A stretch of DNA of 64,000 bases from Bacillota bacterium. GTDB taxonomy: Bacteria; Bacillota; SHA-98; UBA4971. Under the pieces are notes generated by a model that had not been told where the DNA came from, searched no databases, and saw only the letters and a program-made list of their open reading frames with translations. Position 1 is the stretch's first letter, and each line of letters starts with the position of its first letter. Positions 4,478-53,778 of the stretch are shown piece after piece. The position numbers and the translations under genes are program-made. The stretch covers positions 329,549 through 393,548 of the forward strand of contig JBMNFG010000011.1 in the NCBI GenBank assembly GCA_050949175.1, given 5' to 3'.

Positions 4478-6226
4478 TTGACCGGCTTTGAGGCAGGACT
4501 TAAACGTCCTTTATACAACAGACAAAGGTCGACGGTTTTGCAGGAACCCTTGGTATTGCTTGTCATCTTATTGATTGCAGCATCCCTTTTCCTCTTCGTC
4601 ATCTACCCTTTGTACTCAGTCCTTAAGACCAGCCTCATCCAAAGGGATGGAAGCATTGGCCTGGGAGTTTACAGTGGATTACTGGCAAAAAGCTATAACC
4701 GTCGCCCTCTCATAAACAGCATTCGCTTGGGAGCCATTGTTGCTGTCCTCGGCACGATCATAGGGTTCATATTCGCCTACTGCACTACCAGAGTAAACCT
4801 GCCTTTTACCGGCTTTTTCAGAGCGGTAGCGATGTTTCCTATGATATCGCCGCCTTTTATCATGTCCCTTGCAACGATAATGCTGTTCGGCAATAACGGC
4901 TTTATTACCAAAAAGATTTTGCGCGGAATGGTTAACCTTAAAATATACGGGCTGGGCGGCCTTGTGCTTGTGGAAACCTTGGCTTACTTCCCCACTGCAT
5001 ACCTGGTTCTATCCGGCGTGCTGCAGGCGATTGATCCTTCAATAGAGGATGCTGCCTGTGATCTCGGCGCGTCCTGGTGGCAGGTATTCCGAACTGTTAC
5101 ACTGCCCCTCGCCATCCCGGGGATCGCATCTTCATTACTTTTGATCTTCATTGAATCTCTGGCAGACTTCGGGAACCCGATAATCCTGTCAGGAGATTAC
5201 CAGGTCCTGGCGGTGCAAGCCTACTTACGTATAACAGGCCTTTATGACTTGCCGGGAGGAGCGGCACTGGCAGTCATCTTGCTGGTGCCCTCACTCGTTG
5301 CATTCTTCGTTCAGAAGTACTGGGTAAGCAGGAAATCATACGTGACTGTTACAGGTAAGCCTTCAGGACAGCAAATCAGTAGGAGCGAACCATGGGTGAA
5401 GACTGCAGCGCTCATTGTTTGCTTGGTTCTCACCGGTATTATACTCCTTTTCTATGGGACTGTCCTGGTAGGTTCGTTCATGACCCTCTGGGGTGTCAGT
5501 TACGATTTCACATTGGCCAATTACCGCCATGTCTTCGTTGTCGGCGGCGAACATATTAAAGACACCCTGTTCCTCTCGACTGTGTCTACACCCATAACAG
5601 GAATTCTGGCCATGATAATTGCATTCATAGTCGTAAGGAAGGAGTTCTTCGGAAGACAGGCTTTGGAGCTCACTTCCATGCTTACTTTCGCAGTCCCCGG
5701 GACTGTTGTGGGAATAGGATATATCCTTGCTTTCAACCAACCGCCGATAATGCTTACAGGGACTGCAGCGATCATAATAATCTTATTTGTCTTTAGGAAT
5801 ATGCCTACAGGAATCCAATCGGGCATAGCTGCACTTCAGCAGATAGATCCATCTATTGAGGAAGCTTCGTGTGACCTTGGGGCAGACAGCAGCACTACTT
5901 TCAGGAACATCACATTGCCGCTGATTTCACCTGCCTTCTTCTCCGGACTGGTATTCAGCTTTGTCAGATGCGTCACAGCCATCAGCGCGATTATCTTTGT
6001 AGTGTCAGGCAAGTGGAAACTGATAACTGTTGCAGTGTTAGGCTCTGTTGAGAATTCCGATCTGGCTCAGGCGGCTGCTTTCTGCGTCGTTATCATAGCC
6101 ATGGTCCTCAGTGCAATAGGGATTATCAACCTTCTCGTGTATCAACCCTGGAAACGCGGAGGACAGAAACGCCTCAAAGAACCGACAATTTCGGGAGGAG
6201 CAGAATCATGGATCGGTACAGCGTAG
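4478..6226 (+). CDS. ABC permease with two fused TM domains (AfuB/FbpB-like)
   Basis: Two EAA loops (IEDAACDLGAS, IEEASCDLGAD), highly hydrophobic. Confidence 0.9.
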   Translation: MTGFEAGLKRPLYNRQRSTVLQEPLVLLVILLIAASLFLFVIYPLYSVLKTSLIQRDGSIGLGVYSGLLAKSYNRRPLINSIRLGAIVAVLGTIIGFIFAYCTTRVNLPFTGFFRAVAMFPMISPPFIMSLATIMLFGNNGFITKKILRGMVNLKIYGLGGLVLVETLAYFPTAYLVLSGVLQAIDPSIEDAACDLGASWWQVFRTVTLPLAIPGIASSLLLIFIESLADFGNPIILSGDYQVLAVQAYLRITGLYDLPGGAALAVILLVPSLVAFFVQKYWVSRKSYVTVTGKPSGQQISRSEPWVKTAALIVCLVLTGIILLFYGTVLVGSFMTLWGVSYDFTLANYRHVFVVGGEHIKDTLFLSTVSTPITGILAMIIAFIVVRKEFFGRQALELTSMLTFAVPGTVVGIGYILAFNQPPIMLTGTAAIIIILFVFRNMPTGIQSGIAALQQIDPSIEEASCDLGADSSTTFRNITLPLISPAFFSGLVFSFVRCVTAISAIIFVVSGKWKLITVAVLGSVENSDLAQAAAFCVVIIAMVLSAIGIINLLVYQPWKRGGQKRLKEPTISGGAESWIGTA

Positions 6227-19335: not shown

Positions 19336-20622
19336 CTAAACGATCAAGGTTTTCAAAATGAATGGCATGCGCTCCATGGGAAAAACCCTCAGGTCATCTG
19401 CATTGCCCAGGCAGACTTCTGCCTGGCGTAATCCATCAATATGGATTTCTCCGTACTTATTTGCCATGTTTAGCAATGCAACATAAGCTACGTTATTACT
19501 TCTCCAGGTAAGCTTAATAATACCCTCCGCCGGCTCCTCAACAGAAAACTTGTCGCAGCCGGCCTTGATGTCTTTGGCAAGCCCTAACACCTTCTGCATA
19601 AAAGACATAAGCTCAACGTCTGCATCTTCCAAGTTTATCGGGCCCTTCTCATAAAGGCTTGGAGTCGTCTCTGCGCCGATTTCCTGGCCTGTATAAACAA
19701 GAGTTGCTCCCGGGAGTAACGTATAGAAGACGAGCCAGTTGAGTAAAGAGTCTCTACTCCTTATAAAATCTGCTGCTCGTGGAGTCCGGTAGTCTTCCAA
19801 GAATCTAAGCTTTGCTGCGTTCTCAGGGTAAAGCGTCTCCTGGATGTGCAAATAGTTGAGATAGTCTCTGAGTGGGCGCTTGCCGTGGAAGTAATCTGTA
19901 ATGTACTCAAACCCATCGTAGTCGCATGTCAGATCAAAGGCTTCGTGAAGTTCCGGATCGGAGTAGGCCTTATAGCCTCTATCTCGGATGTATTTGACGA
20001 AAGACTTTTCTATACTCCCTGCAATCCAAAGGATTTCTCTATCGCTTTTTCGTTTTAGCCTCTCGCGGGCGGCCAGCCAGAAGTCCAGCGGAACAAGGGA
20101 TGCCAAATCGCAACGAAATCCATCCACGCCAAACTCAGCCCACTGCTCAAGGGTTTCTATTTGATACTCCCAAAGGTCAGATGACCGGTAGTCCAGGTCG
20201 TACACATCTGTCCGGTCAGGCACCTTGGTAAAGAACTCCCCTTTCGGATCTTTAAGAAACCATTCAGGATGTTCGGTGAAGAGAACACTGTCTTTGGATG
20301 TGTGGTTGTACACGATGTCAATAATTACCTTCATGTCCAGATAGTGAGCCTTGTCTATTACCATCTTCAAAGCTCGCGGGTCTCCGAGTTCAGGGTTGAC
20401 AGCACGGTAGTTTCGGACAGCATACGGATTGCCCAGGGTCCCTTGGCGGTCGACGATACCTATAGGATAGACAGGCATCAGCCATAGAACATCCGTATAC
20501 AGGCTTTTAATCCTTTCGAGATCACTGAAAATGTCCATAAACGTGCCGTCGGCAGAATGGTTTCTGGGATAAACCCCATAAATGACGGCATTTTTCACCC
20601 ATTTGGGAGTATCAACAGCCAC
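19336..20622 (-). CDS. GH13 alpha-amylase-family protein, predicted catalytically impaired
   Basis: DIVYNHT and DGFRCD present; region III reads WIAGS and region IV reads FLEDYR. Confidence 0.85.
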   Translation of the reverse strand: MAVDTPKWVKNAVIYGVYPRNHSADGTFMDIFSDLERIKSLYTDVLWLMPVYPIGIVDRQGTLGNPYAVRNYRAVNPELGDPRALKMVIDKAHYLDMKVIIDIVYNHTSKDSVLFTEHPEWFLKDPKGEFFTKVPDRTDVYDLDYRSSDLWEYQIETLEQWAEFGVDGFRCDLASLVPLDFWLAARERLKRKSDREILWIAGSIEKSFVKYIRDRGYKAYSDPELHEAFDLTCDYDGFEYITDYFHGKRPLRDYLNYLHIQETLYPENAAKLRFLEDYRTPRAADFIRSRDSLLNWLVFYTLLPGATLVYTGQEIGAETTPSLYEKGPINLEDADVELMSFMQKVLGLAKDIKAGCDKFSVEEPAEGIIKLTWRSNNVAYVALLNMANKYGEIHIDGLRQAEVCLGNADDLRVFPMERMPFILKTLIV

Positions 20623-21104
20623 TATGATAACCCCCTATCCCTCTCGCAACAAAACATACGGATTCCCGATTTCAATGGCGATCGATGACGCTTCCCTGAA
20701 GAACCTCGATATGTGTCGAAAAATGTGACCAATTGTCTCTTGAGAAACATATTCCTTACAAACCTTAAGAATCCTTCTTAACCGGCTTTATAACACTTCA
20801 GACACGTTTTCACCACAACGGCCTCCTCCCCGCACCATCCACTCCTTTCTATGCTCTCCGGCAAACCGTCCCTATTGGTGAAGAAACCCGGCGGATTCTG
20901 TCGCATTCTGTCGTAATGGCCGATACATTCTCGCCCACCGTTTTGTCGTTCTAAACTGAGCAGGGTTTAAGGCTTAAAGTGTAAGGTTTGAGATTTGAGC
21001 CTTAAGCGGATCAAGACTTCCAACAAAAACACAAAAACACACGTTTTCTTAAGTTGTAGCTATTCAGTAATGACAATAAGTTGAGAAATCCTACCCCTGT
21101 TAAG

Positions 21105-21129
21105 TAAAAAAGCGCCCGAAATCGGACGC
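21105..21129 (-). terminator. Intrinsic terminator downstream of ssrA
   Basis: Minus strand gcgtccga-tt-tcgggcgc followed by tttttt. Confidence 0.7.
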
Positions 21130-21180
21130 AACATCTTGACAGAATCTACCTTCGATTAAGTTACGAAATCTATGAAAAAC

Positions 21181-21540
21181 TGGTGGAGGCGGCGGGAATC
21201 GAACCCGCGTCCGAAAAGCCAACTCGAAGAGCTTCTACGAGCGTAGCGTAGGGTTTAAGTTTCGCCAAGGAAGCTCTCCTACGCGAGTTCCTCCAGGGCT
21301 ATCCCGTTAAAGTCTTAGCTCAAATCCTCCGAGAACAGAATTTGAACGCATCCTGGTTTATTTGACGCCCGCACCGGCCTCCCAGGAAAAGTCCGGATTG
21401 GACGGCTGCTTTATTTCTTAAGCAGCGTAAGCGTAATTGTTGTTGGCACTTATTGTGCGTTCCACCGTTTTACGAGGTTGGCGGAATCTCGGCTCGCTAC
21501 TCTTGTCGTTGCAACTCCCCGTCGAAACCATAACGCCCCC
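21181..21540 (-). ncRNA. ssrA: tmRNA; tag peptide ANNNYAYAA* at 21447-21418
   Basis: 5' GGGGGCG...TTCGACGGGG; 3' T-arm GGTTCGATTCCCG and CGCCTCCACCA; lies directly downstream of smpB. Confidence 0.97.
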
Positions 21541-21642
21541 ATAAACCTTATGATATCTTAAACCGCGAAGCTTAATGTTCCTTTCTTAAACCTCGAAGCT
21601 TATATTTCCTTGAAAACGTTGTCGAGCTTAGAACGGTCTCCC

Positions 21643-22101
21643 TCAGTATGATCCCCTGTCCTTAATAGCTCGATCTACTTGTCTCCTGATATCCCGCTTC
21701 TTAATGTCTTCTCTCTTATCGTAAAGCCGCTTGCCTCGTGCAAGAGCAAGCTCCACCTTAGCCCAACCATTCTTCAAGTAGACTTTCAGCGGAACTAGTG
21801 TAAACCCTTTCTCTTGCGTTTTTGTGGCAAGTTTTCGTATCTCAGACTTATTAAGAAGTAGCTTCCTTGTGCGCCTGGGTTCATGGTTGAACCTGTTGCC
21901 GGCATCATAAGGGCTTACATTCATATTATATAGGAAAACTTCGCCGTTCTCCACTCTGGCGAAACTGTCGCGAAGACTCACCATTCCTTGCCTGACAGAC
22001 TTAATCTCTGTACCGGTAAGGACGATTCCTGCTTCATATGTCTCGCCTATATGATAGTCGTGATAGGCTTTTCTATTTGTTGCAACAACTTTATTTGCCA
22101 A
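21643..22101 (-). CDS. smpB: SsrA-binding protein
   Basis: [35 protein letters not shown]. Confidence 0.98.
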
Positions 22102-22175
22102 CCTGTCTCACCTGCACGCCAATTATAGCACGGAGGATCAGGCGGTTCAAGCAACCCTGAACACGGGCTTTGGCC

Positions 22176-22733
22176 TCACAAACCCAGCTCAGAGGATATG
22201 GACTGCATTGCCTCAAGACCGATCTTTATGAATTCTTCGAGACTAAGTCCTAGTTCACAGCAAGACTTCATCTGTTCCCTGTTCGCCCCTCGGGCAAATG
22301 AAGGCTCCTTGAATCTGTTCAGCACAAAGCCTACATCTATAGCATTCAGCTTTTTCTCAGGGTGGATCAATGCAGCAGCCACCAAAAGCCCGGTTAAAGG
22401 ATCAACCGCCCACAGGGCTTTGTCCAGAAGCGACTCTCGCGGAAGCCCGTGGCATTCATTGTGAGCCTTAACTGCATAGACTATATCCTCATCGACCCCC
22501 AGCTCTTCGAGGAGTTTGCCTCCGACCAAGCTGTGGCGCTCAGGTTCATCTGAAGTCTCGTCATAGTCGACGTCATGCAGCAGTCCGGCAAGTGCCCATT
22601 TCTCTTCATTTTCACCAAGATGTCTTGCTAAAGCCGCCATAACAACTTCTGCCGCAAGCATGTGCTTTACCAAATTCCTCGTCTTCACGTGCTTCTTCAC
22701 AAGCCTCAACGCATCTTCTCTCTTCATCATCAC
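22176..22733 (-). CDS. HD/HDIG-domain metal-dependent phosphohydrolase
   Basis: KHMLA, GLLHDVDY, KAHN, VDPLTG. Confidence 0.88.
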   Translation of the reverse strand: MMMKREDALRLVKKHVKTRNLVKHMLAAEVVMAALARHLGENEEKWALAGLLHDVDYDETSDEPERHSLVGGKLLEELGVDEDIVYAVKAHNECHGLPRESLLDKALWAVDPLTGLLVAAALIHPEKKLNAIDVGFVLNRFKEPSFARGANREQMKSCCELGLSLEEFIKIGLEAMQSISSELGL

Positions 22734-22820
22734 TGCCTCCTCATTTGCTGCTCAATACTGCCCACCTAACACTAAGGCCAGTTTCATCACAGTGGATCTC
22801 ACTATAGGCGCTTCACGCGC

Positions 22821-23047
22821 AATTCCGTGGCCAGCTGATTATGACAGATTCATTATGCTCGATTTGGTGGCCGATCCACTACAGCCGTTTCTATTTCCGA
22901 TTCTATGACCGATCCACTACAGCCAATTCTGTGTCCTATTCATTACGGCGGGTTCATTATGCTCGATTCCGTGGCTGACCCGTTAGGACTGATTCTGTAA
23001 CAGATTCCTTAAAACGGGTTCATTATGGCCGACTTTATGACAGTTTC
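22821..23047. repeat. Degenerate minisatellite of interleaved 12- and 14-bp units (GATTCCGTGGCC / GATTCATTATGGCC)
   Basis: About 17 units read directly, e.g. gatccactacagcc twice and ttcattatgctcgatt twice. Confidence 0.7.
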
Positions 23048-23107
23048 AGCGCCTTCTCCCGCGACCGTTTCCATGGGCCGTCTCGCACTCTCACGATCTC
23101 CGAGTAC

Positions 23108-23687
23108 GTGGTTCGATTTCCGGCACCGCCCTAGGAAGCGATAGTCTGTATGGTCGAATTCCTACCACCGTAAGGCTTTTCTGTGGAAGGTTTTCTACCA
23201 CAGTTTTGGGCGTACGCTCTAAAATGGTAGATTCTCGCCCACAAGGAGGCCTAAAGGTGGAAGGTTTTCTACCACGATCAGGCGTCCAGGTGGTAGAATA
23301 TCGACCACCGCGCCTCCCACAAGGTGGAAAATCGCGGTTTGGTAGTCGAAACTCGCCCACATTTTCTGAAAAAGTGGGCGAAAAACTGCCACGTTTTTAA
23401 AAAAAGTGGTAGAGAATCTACCACCTGAGCCCCAAAAAGCTCCAAAAACCGGGTTGCAACCTGAAAATGTGGTCGATTCTCTACCACCTGAGGCGCTTTG
23501 GGTGGTTCAGAATCGCCCATTTATGAACATTTGCTCGGAAAAATCCGAAAGGGTGGTCGAGATTGAACCACTTCTCTAAGGAAAGGTGGTTGAAAACCGA
23601 CCACTTATGAGCGTTTGCTCAAAAAAACCATTAAGGGTGGCCTCGGTCAACCATCTAATTGGTAAAATGTGGCCGGAAACCGACCAC
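23108..23687. repeat. Phased palindrome array, copy 1: 15 units of about 19 bp GTGGTcGA-N3-TCgACCAC
   Basis: Units start at 23108, 23150, 23183, 23224, 23257, 23290, 23342, 23374, 23406, 23469, 23502, 23553, 23586, 23637 and 23669. Confidence 0.9.
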
Positions 23688-23693
23688 ACTGAT

Positions 23694-23880
23694 AATAGTC
23701 AGAACAACCCTATAATCGGATTCAATAGTTCGAACAACGTATGAGTTGATTTACCAGTTCGAACAACCTCACAAGTTCACTTAATAGCTATAACAACCCT
23801 ACGAGTTCATTCAACAGTCCCGACAGCCCTATAGGTTCATTTGACAGTTTGACAGTTAGAACAACCCTATAAGCTCATTC
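23694..23880. repeat. 30-bp tandem repeat (5 copies plus the gene copy) matching the 3' end of hppA
   Basis: Units such as aatagctataacaaccctacgagttcattc match the gene end gacagttagaacaaccctataagctcattc. Confidence 0.85.
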
Positions 23881-25893
23881 AAATGTACAATCAACGGAGC
23901 GAAAACAAGGGCTACAACAGTCATCAACTTAATCAGGATGTTCATAGCCGGTGCGGCAGCATCCTTAAAGGGGTCTCCTACCGTATCACCGATCACTGCA
24001 GCCGCGTGTACAGGAGTTCCCTTGCCTCCAAGGTTTCCGGCTTCCACGTGTTTCTTGGCATTATCCCAGGCGCCGCCTGCATTGGCAAGCTGGATAGCCA
24101 AGGGCACACCGCTTGTCAATGACCCTGCCAGGACACCTCCCAGAGTTTCAGGGCCCAGAAATACCCCTACAGCAAGCGGAAGGAACACTGCCACAAGTCC
24201 GGGGGCCACCATTTCTCGAAGAGCAGCAGCAGTAGTTATGTCTACACACTTGGCATAATCCGCTCTCCCGGTACCGTCCATAAGACCGGGAATCTCGGCA
24301 AACTGCCTTCTGACTTCTTCAACTACCTTAAACGCAGCACGCCCCACAGCGCTCATGACTTCGGAAGCGAATATGTAAGGTACCATTGCACCTATCAGAA
24401 CCCCTGCCACAACTTTAGCGCTTAGCAGGTTTATAGCTTGAAGCTGCACTGCATGCACATATGCAAAGAACAGAGCAAGTGCTGTCAGGGCAGCGGACCC
24501 GATTGCAAAACCCTTGGCAATAGCTGCAGTAGTATTTCCCGCAGCATCCAGAGAGTCAGTCACTTCCCGAACTTGCGACGGCATATGACCCATCTCAGCA
24601 ATTCCGCCTGCATTATCTGATATAGGTCCGTACGCATCCACAGCTACAGTCATGCCTGTGGTAGAAAGCATTCCCACAGCTGCAATGGCTATGCCGTAGA
24701 AACCTGCTGTGTAATAGGAGATCAATGTTGAAAGAGCGATAAAGATAAGAGGAACTACCGTGCTCCGCATACTCAAAGCAAACCCGCTGATAATATTCGT
24801 AGCAGGCCCGGTAAGGCAAGTCTCAGCTAAATCCTCCACTGCCTTTCCGGATGTATACTTTTCAGCAATCCCTCCGATAACCATCCCTGCCAGGAGGCCG
24901 AAGAAGGCTGCCCAAAATACGCTGAGTTCACCGTAGTAATACTTGCTCAGGAAGAAAGCGCCGACAACAACTAATCCTGCGCTGACAAGCGTGCCATTGC
25001 GCAAAGCGCCTCCCGGATCTCCTTCGGTTTTTCCGGTTCTTACAAAGAATGTTCCGATGATCGATGAGATAATGCCGATCCCTGCCAAACAGAGGGCAAA
25101 TATGATCTTCTTGAAGCCGTCAGGAGCGTTGAGGCTGGTTGCCGTAGCAATAACAAGCGCAGATACAATCGCCCCAATATAAGACTCGTAAAGGTCGGCT
25201 CCCATTCCTGCTACGTCCCCTACATTATCACCTACAAGGTCAGCGATGACCGCAGGGTTTCTAGGGTCATCTTCAGGAATGCCTTTCTCTACTTTACCGA
25301 CGAGGTCTGCACCGACATCTGCCGCTTTTGTGTATATGCCCCCTGCAACCCTTGCGAACAACGCCACAAGGCTCGCGCCCATACTGAACCCTGATATCAA
25401 ATCTGTCGCAGAGAACACATCTCCGCCAGGCAAGACCGACAATATGTAGTACACAATAGACAAAGAAAACAGCCCTATGCTGGCTACATACATTCCCATA
25501 ACCGCGCCGCCGGGAAAGGCCACTCTAAGGGCTTCATTGAAACCGTCTGCTGCAGCGTGGGCAGTCCTGCTGTTAGCAGCTGTAGCTATCTTCATCCCCA
25601 CATATCCTGCAGAAACAGACGTTAATCCTCCTATTAAGAAAGCAATCGCGGTATGTACATTAATCGCAAACACTATAAGCAAGAAGATAACACCGATGAA
25701 AACCAGAACGACTCTGTACTCCCGCCTCAAGAAGGCCATTGCACCTTCATGTATGGCTCCTGATAATTCTTGTATTCTTGCACTGCCAGGATCTTTCTTT
25801 AGACACATACTGCACAAGATAGGCGACAAAAAGGAGCCCTAAACCGCCTGCTAAGGCCGCGTACAAAATAGAAGACGCACCGATGGATGTCAT
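23856..25893 (-). CDS. hppA: Membrane-bound K+-dependent (probably Na+-pumping) pyrophosphatase, with one extra base near codon 31
   Basis: [42 protein letters not shown]; an upstream ATG at 25893 with RBS encodes TM1 in a different frame. Confidence 0.88.
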
Positions 25894-26039
25894 ACACTAC
25901 TCACCTCTAAAATTATTAGACCGTAACGGAAGATATGGCGAACTATATTACAAAGATTGCATCGTACCCGTCCTTAAGAGACAACATCTGCTGCATCTAT
26001 TTTTTTCTTTTCCTTGCACGTCAAATAGGCGAGCAATAT

Positions 26040-26261
26040 TTATCTTATGATACTCAGCAACACTGAGGACATCAAGAAAAGTACGGCTACGACAGAAGTC
26101 ATCTTGCTCAAAAACTCTTCCATTTTTTTGTTCTTGGAGAAAAATAACCGTCCCCCACCGCCGATGGACCCTAGTCCTTCGCCTTTACTTGGTTGAAGGA
26201 GCACTACAGCGATAAGAGCTATGGATATGACGAATTGAAATACTATAAGACCTGTGCGCAA
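26040..26261 (-). CDS. secG: Preprotein translocase subunit SecG
   Basis: VLLQPSKGEGLGSIGGG flanked by two TM helices; lies downstream of eno. Confidence 0.93.
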   Translation of the reverse strand: MRTGLIVFQFVISIALIAVVLLQPSKGEGLGSIGGGGRLFFSKNKKMEEFLSKMTSVVAVLFLMSSVLLSIIR

Positions 26262-26593
26262 TGAAGCTTCACCCCCAATACTTTCAACTCAGCAAGAAAA
26301 CCCTTCAGCAAACTATCATAGATTCTAGCACACGCCGCCAAACTCAGCAAGGCACTGTCGGGACTACCATGTAGTACACTTCAAAATATTAGGAGGTTGC
26401 CCTTATGGAGATTATATCACAAAAGCAGGGGAAAAAGCAGTCATTTAAGTGGAACGAAGCTAAAGAATTAGACGATTTTGACATATGTAACCATACTACA
26501 AAACCACGGAGTGTAGAGGAAAAACAGCAAGGCGCTGCCTACTTTAGCTAGCTTAAAGAGACAGCGCCGGAGTCGGTGCCGTGATTTGTTTGT

Positions 26594-26637
26594 AACCTAC
26601 AAAAGAGATCTTCGCAACCTACAAAAGAGATCTTCGC
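26594..26637. repeat. Perfect 22-bp tandem duplication
   Basis: aacctacaaaagagatcttcgc twice. Confidence 0.85.
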
Positions 26638-26723
26638 CCGATCTATAACCAATCTTCTTTTAGAATTCGCCTAAGAAAAAGACAGCAAATCCACGTACAA
26701 CTTATTGGAAACACAGCCTAAAT

Positions 26724-28022
<1,299 letters not shown>

Positions 28023-50584: not shown

Positions 50585-51395
50585 AATGAGCCGCTACGCC
50601 GCTAATAGCCCGCTAATACGCTGCTAATAGCCAGCTGGTTAACTGCGAATAGAGTGCCAAAGATTGCTGTAGACTGCTAGCTGCTAACAGACCGGTAATA
50701 GACGGCTAACAAACCGCTGTTAAACTGCTAACCGACTGCTGACAGATGGCTAACGGACTGCAAAAAGACTGCTAATCGCCCAGTAATGGCCTACCAATAG
50801 GCCTCTTGTGGCCTCTAGCAGGCCGGTAACGGACTGCTGACAGACCGCTAACGGACTGCTGACAGACTGCTAACGGACTGCTGATACCCTACTAATAGGC
50901 GCCTAATGAACCGCCGGCAGACCGGTGACAAGCCGCTGTTAGACTGCTAACGGCAACCTGAGAGACTGCTATCGGACTGCTAATAGCCTACTCATAGGCC
51001 ACTAATGTCCTCCAGCAGGCCGGTAACCGACTGCTGACGAACTGCTAACGACCTGATGATAGACTGCTCATAGCCTACTGATAGTCTCCTAATGAGCCTC
51101 TAGTAGACGGTCAACAGACTGGTGACACATTGCTAACGACCTGCTAATAGATTGCTAACAGGCTCCTAATCAGCGGCTAGCGAACCGGTAATGGACTGCT
51201 GACAGATTGCTAATGGCCTGCTAATGGCCTGCTGCCAGACTGTTAACGACCTGCTAATAGACTACTCATAGCATACCAATAGGCTCCTAATCAGTCGGCA
51301 GTAGGCCGGCAATGAACTGCTGATAGACTCCTTATACACTCAAGGTAAACCGGTAGGGAACCGGTCATAGGCCTCCAATCGACTGCTCATAGACT
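50585..51395. repeat. About 800 bp 11-bp-period minisatellite (GACTGCTAAYR) with higher-order blocks
   Basis: Example run gactgctgaca-gaccgctaacg-gactgctgaca-gactgctaacg; no ORF of 60 aa or more in the track. Confidence 0.88.
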
Positions 51396-51701: not shown

Positions 51702-52240
51702 GTGGTCGAGAATCGCCCACCATTTGGCTGTTTGATGGCAGTTTTTCTACCACAGTTTTGAGCGTAAGCTCTAAAATGGTAGAGTCTCGCCCACCAAGAG
51801 GCTCAAGGGTGGAAGGTTTTCTACCATGATCAGGCGTTAAGGTGGTAGGATATCGACCACCACGCCTCCCAAAATCTTACACATCACGGTTTGGTGGTCG
51901 AAACTCGCCCACATTTTCTGAAAAAGTGGGCGAAAAACTGCCACATTTTCCAAAAACGTGGTAGGAATTCTACCACCTGAGCCTCAAAAAGCTCCCAAAA
52001 CCGGGCTCCAACCTGAAAATGTGGTCGATTCTCTACCGCCTGAGGCAGTTTGGGTGGTTCAAAATCGTCCATTTATGAACGTTTGCTCGAAAAAATCCAA
52101 AAGGGTGGTCGAAATTGAACCACCTTTTTAAGGAAATGTGGCTCAAAATCGCCCATTTATGAGCGTTTGCTCAAAAAAACCGCAAAGAGTAGCCGAAATT
52201 GGTCCACGTTGTCTGCAAACGGTGGTTCAATTTCGATAAC
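51702..52240. repeat. Phased palindrome array, copy 2: 14 units, same orientation as copy 1
   Basis: Units start at 51702, 51735, 51776, 51809, 51842, 51894, 51926, 51958, 52021, 52054, 52105, 52138, 52189 and 52222; spacers align with copy 1. Confidence 0.9.
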
Positions 52241-52284
52241 CGTTCTTAGCTAGATTTGTTTTTGAACGGTTGAGTCAGAGTCCG

Positions 52285-52620
52285 GGTAAAAAAAGCAGCA
52301 AAATCAACAGGAAAGACAGCACAAAATGGAATATCAGAATGCCACAGAACAGACCTCAAAAGAGGCAACAGAAGAAGCAAAAGAAAGAAGCAGGACAGGC
52401 GCCGGAAGATAGAATATGAGAACGCCACCGAAGAGCCAGCAGACGAGATCTTAGAAGAAGCAACAGGAGAAAGAGCAGAAGATAGGAGCAGGAAAGGCTC
52501 TGGAAGATAGAGTACAAGAACGCACAGAACAGGCACCGAAAGAAGGAGCGAAAGAAAGAACAGAAGACAGAGCAGCAGAAAGAACTGAAGGAAGAGCAGG
52601 CGAAAGAAGGGAAACCGTCA
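52285..52620. repeat. Purine-rich (A/G) low-complexity tract with roughly 12-bp periodicity
   Basis: aagaacagaagacagagcagcagaaagaactgaagg-like runs; very few T on the + strand. Confidence 0.6.
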
Positions 52621-52720
52621 GCTAGTCGTAAAGATGGCCGACTAGTCGTAAAGATGGCCAACTAGACGTAAAGATAGCCAACCGGCCGTAAAGATAGCCA
52701 ACTAGGTGTATAGATGGCAG
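52621..52720. repeat. 20-bp tandem repeat (4 copies plus the gene copy) matching the 3' end of oppD
   Basis: actagtcgtaaagatggcca-type units followed in register by actaggtgtatagatggcag, which contains the stop codon. Confidence 0.85.
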
Positions 52721-53778
52721 CGGACTTTGCGTCCGTCATCCATTGTGACAAAAGGCGGCTCAATATTGAAGCACACAGAGTGAGCATCCTTGCAGCGCGG
52801 TGTAAAGCTGCACCCAGGAGGAAGATTGGTAAGGTCGGGAACCTCGCCTTCTACAGGAACAAGTTCGCGCCTCTGGCCTATCTGGGGAATCGATCTTAGA
52901 AGGCCTTGAGTATAAGGATGAAGCGGCGAAGTAAGCACATCGTCGATATCTCCCGACTCTACGATTTGGCCTGCGTACATCACGGCAGCTTTGTGACAGA
53001 ATTCCGCTGCAACGCCCAGGTCATGGGTGACAAGGATTATCGCTGTCCCAAGCTCTTCATTAATCTCACGCATCAAATCCAGCACCTGCGCCTGAACTGT
53101 GACGTCCAAAGCAGTGGTGGGTTCGTCGGCCAGTATAACCTTAGGCCTGCACGCAAGGGCAATAGCAATGAGGATGCGCTGCTGCATCCCACCGCTGAAC
53201 TGATGGGGATACTCCAGATGCCTGTGCTCCGGAGAAGGTATCCCCACCTGCCTTAGAAGGTTCACCACCAGTTCCCGCTCTTTCTCGCGCTCATCACGCC
53301 GAAGGCGCCTGAGAAACCCCGGCAGCAGCCCGTGAACACGAAGAGACTCCGAAATCTGCTCCCCCACTCGGTAAGCAGGGTTCAGGGTCGTCATAGGATC
53401 CTGGAAAACCATTGCGATATCTTTTCCTCGCACGTCCCGCATTTCTGCTTCAGACAGAGTCAGAAGTTCCCTTCCTTCAAACTTAACAGACCCGTTGACA
53501 ATCCGCCCCGGACGAGGGACAAGCCGCATTATCGAAAGCAGGCATGCGCTCTTACCGCAGCCTGATTCTCCCACAATCGCCAGGATGTCGCCTTTCGCTA
53601 ACACAAGGTCGACATTACGCACAGCGCGGACAGTCCCTCGAGGAGTTGGATACTCGGTAGACAGCCCGGAGACCTCAAGGACCCAAGGAGTTTCAGGAGA
53701 CTGTTCATTGTGAGTTGATTTCCCAGATTCAGCTCCGATCAAAGCTCGATGTTTAGTTCGTTTGTTTAGGGTGTCCAT
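52702..53778 (-). CDS. oppD: Oligopeptide/dipeptide ABC ATP-binding protein (OppD/DppD)
   Basis: [31 protein letters not shown]-terminal Cys motif. Confidence 0.92.
   Translation of the reverse strand: MDTLNKRTKHRALIGAESGKSTHNEQSPETPWVLEVSGLSTEYPTPRGTVRAVRNVDLVLAKGDILAIVGESGCGKSACLLSIMRLVPRPGRIVNGSVKFEGRELLTLSEAEMRDVRGKDIAMVFQDPMTTLNPAYRVGEQISESLRVHGLLPGFLRRLRRDEREKERELVVNLLRQVGIPSPEHRHLEYPHQFSGGMQQRILIAIALACRPKVILADEPTTALDVTVQAQVLDLMREINEELGTAIILVTHDLGVAAEFCHKAAVMYAGQIVESGDIDDVLTSPLHPYTQGLLRSIPQIGQRRELVPVEGEVPDLTNLPPGCSFTPRCKDAHSVCFNIEPPFVTMDDGRKVRCHLYT

What the first reader, a model, noticed from the sequence alone, without database searches (positions are those of the whole stretch)
23108..23687. 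Array of 19-bp palindromes spaced at whole helical turns: a candidate uncharacterised nucleoprotein (centromere- or origin-like) element
Seen: 15 imperfect palindromes GTGGTcGA-N3-TCgACCAC (e.g. gtggtagaatatcgaccac, gtggtcgattctctaccac). Start-to-start spacings are 42,33,41,33,33,52,32,32,63,33,51,33,51,32 bp, i.e. only 3, 4, 5 or 6 helical turns (561 bp over 53 turns, about 10.6 bp per turn). The spacers carry A/T tracts. Spacings of 32, 41 and 52 are not multiples of 3, which argues against coding. Arm substitutions are mostly non-compensatory, which argues against RNA hairpins. Established: the motif is not parS, Noc NBS, RacA ram, matS, SlmA or a LexA box. Inference: many dimers of one protein bind on a single face of bent DNA, as in a partition, anchoring or nucleoid-organising complex. 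No cognate protein is evident in the window.
Basis: partly seen in the sequence, partly recalled or inferred. Interest (0 to 1): 0.9.

Follow-up and report, generated by a model that had tools for sequence, protein, structure and literature searches.

The report
Dispersed curved arrays of phased palindromes
The palindrome array is real and strikingly phased with the DNA helix, but it is one of about twenty near-identical half-kilobase copies scattered between genes of an uncultured digester bacterium, most likely repeated docking platforms for an unknown DNA-binding protein rather than a centromere or origin.

Summary
Window 23150-23687 carries 13-14 imperfect 19-bp dyads (GTGGTNGA-N3-TCNACCAC) spaced 33,41,33,33,52,32,32,63,33,51,33 bp. 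The element is not unique. A second copy lies at window 51702-52240, and the 2.0-Mb genome holds 22 copies (about 20 distinct loci), 79-88% identical to the window copy, all intergenic. Related copies (67-75% identical) occur only in congeners.

The arms do not covary: 73.9% of cells pair against 73.5% when shuffled, and some mismatches are conserved. The element is non-coding, has no Rfam match and gives a weak consensus fold, so an RNA or hairpin reading is unsupported.

DNA-level signals are strong:
- Dyad centres fit a 10.6-bp period (R 0.91).
- AA/TT dinucleotides recur every 10.5-10.6 bp in all six species, in register with the dyads.
- GTGG/CCAC is 85% conserved between species, against 57% for spacers.
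- The motif is almost confined to the elements (166 sites inside, 8 outside).

Copies sit at orthologous loci across species, yet all G000 copies form one clade. That indicates concerted evolution, alongside gains and empty sites.

Best reading: a dispersed family of curved arrays that bind dimers of an unidentified protein on one helical face. The single centromere or origin reading is not supported.

The parts
23150..23604 (+). Copy A, conserved core of the repeat unit. It holds twelve 19-bp dyads P1-P12 starting at 23150, 23183, 23224, 23257, 23290, 23342, 23374, 23406, 23469, 23502, 23553 and 23586.
   Evidence: Pattern hits. Aligned with 19 other genomic copies and 26 congener copies. The left edge of family similarity is at P1.
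23605..23687 (+). Copy A, an extra partial 84-bp tandem unit (about 8 helical turns) with a degenerate dyad near 23637 and a dyad at 23669. The number of such units varies between copies.
   Evidence: the repeat finder families D1 and D8, spacing 84. TRF period 83-84 with 1.9-3.5 copies in 7 of the 19 IGRs analysed. Secondary blastn hits of query 401-540.
23108..23126 (.). It lies outside the conserved unit and is probably a chance or decayed site.
   Evidence: It is not among the <=3-mismatch hits. The flank left of 23150 is not conserved among copies.
51702..52240 (+). Copy B of the same element in the same window. Dyads start at 51702, 51735, 51776, 51809, 51842, 51894, 51926, 51958, 52021, 52054, 52105 and 52222, with the same spacing pattern.
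   Evidence: mean column identity 85% over the whole 719-column alignment, flanks included. blastn hit at C11:381265-381742, 86.4% identical.
22820..23007 (.). Locus-specific degenerate direct repeats left of copy A (units of 38 and 104 bp). They are not shared with other copies.
   Evidence: the repeat finder families D4, D6 and D7. The flank all-against-all comparison shows no sharing.
23697..23896 (.). About 30-bp degenerate tandem copies of the last codons and stop of the H+-pyrophosphatase gene (gene 23856-25829, minus strand), lying between that gene and copy A.
   Evidence: the repeat finder family D3. Comparison with the gene end in four congeners.
52622..52718 (.). A 20-bp unit in 4.8 copies, which are copies of the 3' end and stop codon of the ABC-ATPase gene (52702-53778, minus strand), right of copy B.
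   Evidence: TRF period 20, 84% matches. Sequence read. Gene identified.
50595..51263 (.). 11/22/33/88-bp degenerate tandem repeats in the 2.1-kb intergenic region left of copy B.
   Evidence: TRF rows for C11_380057. Sequence read.

Best explanation
The array is one copy of a genus-specific, dispersed, non-coding repeat of about 0.5 kb. There are about 20 loci per genome, all intergenic. Each copy is a stretch of intrinsically curved DNA with 12 or more dyad-symmetric 19-bp sites (half-site GTGGTNGA, A/T-rich centre). The site centres, and the A/T tracts between them, recur every 10.6 bp, so every half-site lies on the same face of the helix. Inferred mechanism: dimers of one sequence-specific DNA-binding protein, not yet identified, occupy the sites cooperatively, and the DNA bends or wraps around the resulting oligomer. 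This would give about 20 large nucleoprotein particles per chromosome. The copies are kept alike within a genome by gene conversion, or by replacement at resident sites, and are occasionally gained or lost. The role is more likely chromosome-architectural, topological or replication-related than segregation or initiation. Shown: repeat family, phasing, curvature signal, half-site conservation, absence of pairing covariation, positional orthology with concerted evolution. Inferred: protein binding, wrapping and role.
For: - Copy number and location: 22 blastn copies of at least 200 bp, 79-88% identical to the window copy, all intergenic in gaps of 634-2381 bp.
- Spacing: the pattern is identical to +/-1 bp at almost every gap (one 2-bp departure in the G006 copy) in the 10 copies printed, which cover 5 of the 6 species; the median best period over all 46 copies of 6 species is 10.6 bp. 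Rayleigh R is 0.91 at 10.6 bp; 0.0002 to 0.019 of random spacing sets reach it.
- A/T tracts: the AA/TT period is 10.5 bp in 20 of 20 G000 copies, with power 3.3-5.1 against 0.37 +/- 0.18 for shuffles. In congeners the period is 10.5-10.6 bp. AA/TT frequency is 0.29-0.50 in the four phase bins in register with dyad centres and 0.03-0.16 elsewhere.
- Independent half-sites: own-partner complementarity is 0.70 and 0.67, against 0.73 and 0.68 for other arms. 73.9% of cells pair against 73.5 +/- 0.2% when shuffled. Pairs with a change on both sides number 23 against 20.3 +/- 2.4. Some mismatches are conserved, unpaired in 44-45 of 46 sequences.
- Graded conservation between G000 and G004/G007: GTGG/CCAC 0.85, inner arm 0.65, centre 0.69, spacer 0.57, flank 0.21.
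- Motif distribution: with up to 2 mismatches there are 166 sites inside elements and 8 outside in the genome. With up to 1 mismatch, G004 has 91, G007 has 112, G001 has 0, G002 has 2 and another genus has 0.
- Positional orthology: of 29 congener loci, 6 have both flanks and 3 have one flank mapping next to G000 copies. Yet the 20 G000 copies form one clade with 100/100 support.
- Unit structure: copy-number changes come in 32-bp and 84-bp units, that is 3 and 8 helical turns.
Against: - No binding protein was found. There is no isolated operator next to a candidate gene, and the neighbours of the few copies in G005 and G006 gave nothing.
- Phasing and motif sharing partly reflect descent from tandemly duplicated 32-bp and 84-bp units. 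The conservative spacing test gives only 0.019.
- Concerted evolution could preserve similarity without any host function.
- A small spacer palindrome (GAGC-N4-GCTC in G000; CGGC-N5-GCCG or CAGC-N5-GCTG in congeners) changes in a compensatory way, which hints at some single-strand or cruciform constraint.
- Contigs from RNA libraries of 4 studies run into the element, so transcription is not excluded.
- 15 of 19 copies share one orientation relative to GC skew (my tally, binomial about 0.02). A purely symmetric binding array does not predict this.
Confidence: 0.5

Rival explanations
1. A non-autonomous mobile element (MITE- or BIME-like). On this reading the dyads are binding sites for a transposase or recombinase encoded elsewhere or now lost. 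The family persists selfishly by transposition into, or homing onto, particular intergenic sites.
For: - It is multi-copy, intergenic and genus-restricted.
- The PPase-HD gap is 1122 bp with the element in G000 but 110-205 bp without it in 4 congeners.
- G007 copies have empty counterparts in G000: L013 and L026 with a gap of 20-40 bp, L030 with about 155 bp.
- It has a mosaic build, with variable 84-bp units and an extra 134-bp left module in one subfamily.
- There is an orientation bias relative to replication (15 of 19).
- 5 of 17 copies lie within 3 kb of a tRNA or tmRNA gene, against 1.6 expected, p 0.013.
Against: - No Y1/RAYT transposase (PF01797) and no TnpB (PF07282) were found in the 92%-complete genome.
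- No recurrent gene lies next to the copies.
- No target-site duplication or clean insertion edge could be defined.
- Many copies are old residents at orthologous loci.
- Transposase binding does not explain twelve internal sites phased over 50 helical turns with phased A-tracts.
Confidence: 0.2
2. Protein-independent structural or 'satellite' DNA. On this reading, tandem amplification of a 32/84-bp unit produced a curved block, in a genome prone to tandem duplication. The block spread and is homogenised by gene conversion, with no specific ligand or with only generic binders of curved DNA.
For: - The genome holds 144 tandem-repeat regions. 24 of the 120 non-element regions lie within 1.5 kb of elements, and 96 lie elsewhere.
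- The element has internal 32-bp and 84-bp periodicities.
- Concerted evolution is seen.
- No cognate protein was found.
Against: - GTGG/CCAC is conserved at 0.85 between species, against 0.57 for spacers.
- The spacing pattern is conserved to within 1-2 bp across the six species sampled despite about 30% divergence.
- The motif is excluded from the rest of the genome.
All three argue for sequence-specific constraint.
Confidence: 0.17
3. A multi-copy structured non-coding RNA gene (or a single-stranded DNA structure) of about 0.5 kb made of many hairpins.
For: - The fold energies of the 20 G000 copies are low on both strands: alifold -249.6 on the plus strand and -231.5 on the minus strand.
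- In G000 some arms pair perfectly with neighbouring arms.
- One small spacer stem shows compensatory change between species.
- Contigs from RNA libraries of 4 of 4 runs from 4 studies extend from both flanking genes into the element.
Against: - Rfam at E<=1 finds only tmRNA in window 20000-27000.
- RNAalifold on 46 sequences gives only -20.1 kcal/mol and 48 pairs.
- The dyad 'stems' show no covariation and carry conserved mismatches.
- G.T and A.C mismatches are not skewed: 149 to 91 in G000 and 104 to 151 in G004/G007/G003, and 'other' mismatches are more numerous.
- The arm-to-arm pairings seen in G000 are not kept in G004/G007.
- Orientation relative to neighbouring genes is random.
- An RNA gives no reason for 10.6-bp phasing.
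- Promoter- and terminator-like sites are at chance level.
Confidence: 0.08
4. A single-locus partition centromere or replication-origin iteron block.
For: The anatomy (an array of dyads on one face of bent DNA) resembles plasmid centromeres and iteron blocks. This resemblance is recalled, not tested.
Against: - There are 22 copies on 8 contigs.
- dnaA is at C7:52853-53335 with the skew switch there, on a different contig from the window.
- The neighbours are housekeeping genes.
- There is no match in 72,556 plasmid records or 50,697 phage records.
- The same locus is empty in 4 congeners.
Confidence: 0.03

Closest known systems
REP/BIME elements of enterobacteria (palindromic units in mosaic arrays)
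   Same: - Both are extragenic, interspersed arrays of regularly spaced imperfect palindromes that serve as protein-binding sites (abstract of PMC2817692, seen in the search listing).
- Species-specific sequence at sometimes shared intergenic positions, i.e. concerted evolution, is recalled from the older BIME literature and was not checked here.
- Mosaic build with variable modules.
   Different: - No RAYT/Y1 transposase is present.
- The dyads occur only inside one conserved 0.5-kb array, not as singletons.
- The arms do not behave as stems.
- There is strict 10.6-bp phasing with phased A-tracts over about 50 turns.
- There are about 20 arrays rather than hundreds of units.
Plasmid partition centromeres built of repeated dyads or iterons (F sopC, R1 parC; recalled)
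   Same: Both are an array of a dozen repeated sites at whole helical turns, bound cooperatively by dimers to give a wrapped or higher-order complex.
   Different: - Those are one locus per replicon, next to the par operon.
- Here there are about 20 chromosomal copies with housekeeping neighbours, no plasmid or phage match and no linked par genes.
Phased multi-site operators wrapped by Lrp/AsnC-type oligomers (pap, ilvIH; recalled)
   Same: Both have dyad sites with A/T-rich centres spaced about 3 helical turns (32-33 bp) apart on one face, with the DNA wrapped around a protein disc.
   Different: - Those are promoter-specific regulatory regions of about 100-200 bp, not a dispersed 0.5-kb repeat family.
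- The motif here is different.
- No Lrp-type protein was linked to the arrays here (not tested).
BOX and other modular intergenic repeats of Gram-positive bacteria (recalled)
   Same: Both are non-coding and intergenic, with tens of copies or more, and are built of modules with a variable number of an internal unit.
   Different: - Those are shorter, are thought to act as RNA or stem-loop elements, and are not known for helical phasing.

Membership tests
REP/BIME (RAYT-associated palindromic repeats) | A cognate Y1 (RAYT) transposase gene is present in the genome | tested here: not met
   PF01797 gave 0 matches in G000 (92% complete). The control search found it in 6 of 14 reference genomes.
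REP/BIME (RAYT-associated palindromic repeats) | Imperfect palindromes that form stem-loops, with the arms constrained to pair | tested here: not met
   73.9% of cells pair against 73.5% when shuffled, and some mismatches are conserved. An arm's own partner is no better a match than other arms.
REP/BIME (RAYT-associated palindromic repeats) | Extragenic, interspersed and regularly spaced in mosaic arrays | tested here: met
MITE | Terminal inverted repeats plus target-site duplication at the insertion edges | tested here: inconclusive
   Occupied and empty sites were compared. The edges are blurred by non-homologous flank sequence of 200-500 bp, and no duplication could be identified. The end dyads are trivially inverted repeats of each other.
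Partition centromere (parS / sopC / parC type) | One or a few loci per replicon, linked to parAB-type genes or clustered near the origin | tested here: not met
   There are 22 copies on 8 contigs, the neighbours are housekeeping genes, and dnaA is on another contig.
Replication origin or iteron block | Adjacent to an initiator gene or skew switch; unique | tested here: not met
   The window contig has uniform negative skew, and the element is multi-copy.
Structured non-coding RNA family | Conserved secondary structure supported by covariation, or a match to a curated family | tested here: not met
   Only tmRNA matched in Rfam. The consensus fold on 46 sequences is -20.1 kcal/mol. There is no covariation in the dyads.
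CRISPR array | Identical repeats separated by unique spacers | tested here: not met
   The spacers are conserved between copies, 0.85 within G000.
Protein-coding gene | An open frame kept across copies | tested here: not met
   The longest recurrent frame (62 aa, minus strand) has an internal stop in 10 of 20 G000 copies and is broken by stops or frameshifting length changes in most of the 26 congener copies.
Array of dimer-binding DNA sites on one helical face (functional class, not a named family) | Half-site core more conserved than spacers; centres at whole helical turns; demonstrated binding | tested here: inconclusive
   The first two features are met. Binding is not testable with these tools, and no cognate protein was found.

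The most novel reading that the evidence does not exclude
A lineage-specific bacterial 'chromatin' device. About 20 dispersed 0.5-kb curved arrays would each load a dozen or more dimers of a still unknown protein into a wrapped particle. The arrays would co-evolve with that protein (the half-site shifts to GTGC or GTGAC in the most divergent congeners). They would be homogenised across the chromosome by gene conversion and oriented with respect to replication. Their role would be as fork, topological or domain barriers, and fork stalling at them might seed the unusual tandem duplications of neighbouring gene ends.
Probability: 0.2. Interest if true: 0.85.

Novelty: new variant of a known kind. 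Interest (0 to 1): 0.6.

Why it matters
Interspersed palindromic repeats are known mainly from proteobacteria, where they are tied to RAYT transposases and stem-loops. Here a Bacillota lineage that is common in anaerobic digesters carries a repeat family with a double-strand, one-face, nucleosome-like signature. It has a 10.6-bp phasing of sites and A-tracts over about 50 turns. The copies stay at the same chromosomal positions across species while evolving in concert. If a cognate protein exists, this would be a tractable case of sequence-programmed higher-order nucleoprotein particles on a bacterial chromosome. It would also be a natural system for studying gene conversion among dispersed repeats. 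If no such protein exists, it is still a clean example of intrinsically curved satellite-like DNA in a small bacterial genome.

Tried and rejected
**Inter-palindrome hairpins (my own idea, note).** In G000 some right arms pair perfectly with the next left arm, and one stem has a GNRA-like loop. I rejected this. The pairings are not kept in G004/G007. The global consensus fold is weak. The strand comparison is not decisive: -249.6 against -231.5.

**Naive search for covarying helices.** It was dominated by A/T-rich noise because I had allowed A.C as pairable, and it was not used.

**Coding.** The recurrent 62-aa frame is broken in many copies.

**Transposases.** Neither Y1_Tnp nor TnpB was found in G000. 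Other transposase families were not searched.

**Promoter and terminator scan.** Results were at chance level. One terminator-like dyad plus T-run lies on the minus strand (23426-23404).

**Cognate protein.**
- No isolated operator was found. The 8 motif hits outside my element intervals are truncated copies at contig ends, one site beside the C4 copy, two mini-arrays (C11:~90780-90870 and C9:~470900-471020, upstream of rpsB) and two lone weak hits (C2:3740, C9:87671).
- Neighbours of the few copies in G005 and G006 were a helicase, an ABC permease, a symporter and a 365-aa protein with a weak MarR-like hit. That last protein has no counterpart in G000, and its locus is partly masked.

**Viral collection.** Of two pattern scans, one found nothing. 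The other found one 5.4-kb contig that is the G000-type C9:638-kb locus next to a tRNA gene, so it adds nothing. Plasmids and phages gave no match.

**Expression.**
- The look-up of sequencing runs listed 24 runs. Twenty hold at least half of the sampled words, from 17 studies of digester, biogas, manure, landfill and sludge samples, and 6 are RNA libraries.
- Contigs of 4 RNA runs were laid. They run from both flanking genes into the element and break inside it.
- Contigs cannot show strand, ends or level, and DNA carry-over is possible. This neither shows nor excludes transcription. One bin without cover in one run is not a finding.

**Literature.** One search with 6 terms on phased palindromic intergenic repeats listed 4 of 7 papers. 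I saw only the listing and the abstract starts, and none describes this element. A search for a MAG name taken from a record title found 0 papers. Supplementary files were not consulted.

The metagenome-contig scan, the protein searches and the structure tools were not used, because there was no protein to test.

Full report
**What is there.**
Window 22734-23855 is a 1.1-kb non-coding gap. It lies between an HD-domain gene (22176-22733, minus strand) and an H+-pyrophosphatase gene (23856-25829, minus strand). SmpB and tmRNA lie just upstream.

The degenerate dyad GTGGTNGANNNTCNACCAC, with up to 3 mismatches, matches 27 times in the window. Shuffles give 2.19 +/- 1.32. Thirteen matches lie in 23150-23687, with start-to-start spacings of 33,41,33,33,52,32,32,63,33,51,33 bp and two further sites beyond. 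The other 12 array matches form a second copy at 51702-52240 with the same spacings. That copy is 86% identical to the first by blastn, spacers included.

**It is a dispersed repeat family.**
- blastn against the window's own 2.0-Mb, 14-contig assembly finds 22 copies of the roughly 480-500-bp unit, 79-88% identical to the window copy.
- Two of these look like assembly or segmental duplicates, with flanks 99-99.8% identical. That leaves about 20 distinct loci.
- All copies lie in intergenic gaps of 634-2381 bp, in either orientation relative to their neighbours.
- The left edge of similarity is the first dyad. The right end carries a variable number of 84-bp units.
- One subfamily has an extra 134-bp repeated module on the left.

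Among 41 genomes searched, matches occur only in the same genus: 5 of 7 congeners, 0 of 10 genomes of other genera of the family, and 0 of 23 more distant genomes. A pattern scan of one genome per species across the whole prokaryote collection hit 24 stretches in 4 assemblies. Their record titles call them uncultured Bacillota/Firmicutes MAGs. Public runs that hold the locus come from digesters, biogas reactors, manure, landfill and sludge. Plasmid and phage collections give no match.

**Not coding, not a recognisable RNA, and not hairpins.**
- *Coding.* The only recurrent open frame (62 aa, minus strand) has an internal stop in 10 of 20 copies here and is broken by stops or frameshifting length changes in most of the 26 congener copies.
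- *Known RNA families.* Rfam at E<=1 finds only tmRNA in window 20000-27000.
- *My hairpin idea.* I first thought neighbouring arms might form long hairpins. With 26 congener copies added (alignment A2, 46 sequences), RNAalifold gives only -20.1 kcal/mol.
- *Formal count on the twelve dyads.* 73.9% of cells pair, against 73.5 +/- 0.2% after shuffling partners. 23 pairs change on both sides, against 20.3 +/- 2.4. Several positions are unpaired in 44-45 of 46 sequences.
- *Arm complementarity.* An arm matches its own partner no better (0.70; 0.67 in G004/G007) than it matches arms of other dyads (0.73; 0.68).
- *Mismatch types.* G.T and A.C mismatches are not skewed to one strand.

The arms are therefore independent copies of a half-site, not co-evolving stems.

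**Strong double-strand DNA signals.**
- In the 10 copies printed, from 5 of the 6 species, the spacing pattern is kept to +/-1 bp at almost every gap despite about 30% sequence divergence; over all 46 copies of six species the median best-fit period is 10.6 bp.
- Dyad centres fit a 10.6-bp period with Rayleigh R 0.91. The fraction of random spacing sets reaching this is 0.0002 with eleven free spacings, and 0.019 if only the five distinct spacing classes count as free.
- AA/TT dinucleotides show a sharp 10.5-bp peak in 20 of 20 copies, with power 3.3-5.1 against 0.37 +/- 0.18 for shuffles. The same 10.5-10.6-bp peak appears in every congener.
- AA/TT frequency is 0.29-0.50 in the four phase bins in register with dyad centres and 0.03-0.16 elsewhere.
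- Copy-number variation comes in 32-bp and 84-bp units, that is 3 and 8 helical turns.
- Between G000 and G004/G007 the outer GTGG/CCAC positions are 0.85 conserved, inner arm 0.65, centre 0.69, spacers 0.57 and flanks 0.21.
- The motif is nearly absent outside the elements: 166 sites inside against 8 outside with up to 2 mismatches. Most of the 8 are truncated copies or two mini-arrays.
- Within the genus the motif is abundant only where the element is: 91 and 112 sites in G004 and G007, 0 in G001, 2 in G002 and 0 in another genus.

**Evolutionary behaviour.**
I used tblastx of the flanks of 29 congener loci against this genome. Six congener copies have both flanks, and three have one flank, mapping next to G000 copies. 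Examples are C11:255 kb, C11:234 kb, C11:381 kb (the window's copy B), C9:264 kb, C9:638 kb and C7:24 kb. Yet in a maximum-likelihood tree all 20 G000 copies form one clade (100/100, stem 0.37 changes per site), apart from their positional orthologues. This indicates concerted evolution, or repeated replacement at resident sites.

Gains and losses also occur. The pyrophosphatase-HD gap is 110-205 bp without an element in 4 congeners. Several G007 copies have empty counterparts here, for example L013 against C10:74.3 kb, with a gap of about 1.17 kb against about 40 bp.

Two weaker patterns stand out:
- 15 of 19 copies on contigs with clear GC skew have the same strand on the lagging side (my tally, binomial about 0.02).
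- 5 of 17 copies lie within 3 kb of a tRNA or tmRNA gene, against 1.6 expected, p 0.013.

**Interpretation.**
It does not fit the reading as a centromere or origin. There are about 20 dispersed copies. dnaA and the skew switch are on another contig. The neighbours are housekeeping genes. The site is empty in relatives.

I rank the readings as follows:
- Protein-binding, wrapped-array reading: about 0.5.
- Transposase-driven mobile element: about 0.2. No RAYT or TnpB was found, no target duplication could be defined, and the internal phasing would be unexplained.
- Ligand-free curved satellite DNA kept by gene conversion: about 0.17.
- Structured RNA: about 0.08.
- Centromere or origin: about 0.03.

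Binding, wrapping and function are inferred. No cognate protein was found.

**Comparison with what is known.**
The nearest described kind is the REP/BIME type of interspersed palindromic array. For this I saw only the abstract of PMC2817692 in the listing; the species-specificity of such repeats is recalled. This family differs from it in five ways:
- It lacks a RAYT.
- Its arms are not stems.
- Its dyads are confined to one conserved 0.5-kb unit.
- It has strict 10.6-bp phasing with phased A-tracts.
- It has few, long arrays.

Its anatomy also recalls plasmid centromere arrays and Lrp-type phased operators (recalled), but it meets the defining context of neither. I therefore file it as a new variant of a known kind. 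It is of moderate to high interest, limited by the lack of a ligand and by the organism being uncultured.

**Limits.**
- The assembly is 92% complete, and repeats break contigs, so copy number and chromosomal layout are lower bounds.
- Copies are related, so counts across them are not independent events.
- The RNA-library data are contigs only.

Noticed in passing
window 23697-23896 and 52622-52718: The short tandem repeats flanking both copies are diverged copies of the last 20-30 nt, stop codon included, of the adjacent genes (H+-PPase and an ABC ATPase). The gene ends have been duplicated outward 5-6 times. I know of no standard mechanism for this.
   Followed up: partly
whole genome G000 (e.g. 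window 50595-51263; C11:202.4-203.8 kb; C9:263.3-263.8 kb): The genome is unusually rich in locus-specific degenerate tandem repeats in intergenic regions: 144 regions and 20 kb in total (TRF score >=80, period >=9). 24 of the 120 regions that are not part of an element lie within 1.5 kb of an element copy, which is roughly six-fold enrichment by my estimate.
   Followed up: partly
window 52260-52620: A purine-rich, low-complexity stretch of about 360 bp with 12/24-bp periodicity lies between copy B and the ABC-ATPase gene. The 101-aa ORF listed there (52356-52661, minus strand) is probably spurious.
   Followed up: no
G000 C9:277.6-278.0 kb, C9:289.4-289.7 kb, C9:264.4-264.7 kb, C8:49.3-49.7 kb, C9:355.1-355.3 kb: A second repeat module of about 134 bp, present in 2-3 tandem copies, is attached to the left end of a subfamily of five or six element copies.
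   Followed up: partly
G000 C11:~90780-90870 and C9:~470900-471020: Two short, degenerate mini-arrays of 3-4 dyads lie outside full elements. The second is upstream of the ribosomal protein S2 gene. They may be decayed copies or minimal functional units.
   Followed up: partly
A2 alignment, rows G005_L006, G005_L010 and G006_L005 (columns ~205-292): In the most divergent congeners several dyads have changed in the same way on both arms (GTGG/CCAC to GTGC/GCAC in G006; a GTGAC...GGCAC form repeated in three neighbouring sites in G005). This would be expected if the sites track a changed binding specificity, or are homogenised within an array.
   Followed up: partly
L083 (viral-collection contig, 5407 bp), positions 4790-4885 and 5055-5407: A contig filed as viral ends in a G000-type element copy next to a tRNA gene. 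It matches the C9:638-kb locus, so it is probably host DNA or a prophage border rather than a phage-borne element.
   Followed up: partly
window 21181-21540: A tmRNA gene (Rfam 203.6 bits) with smpB immediately upstream (21643-22101). Copy A lies 1.6 kb from it.
   Followed up: yes
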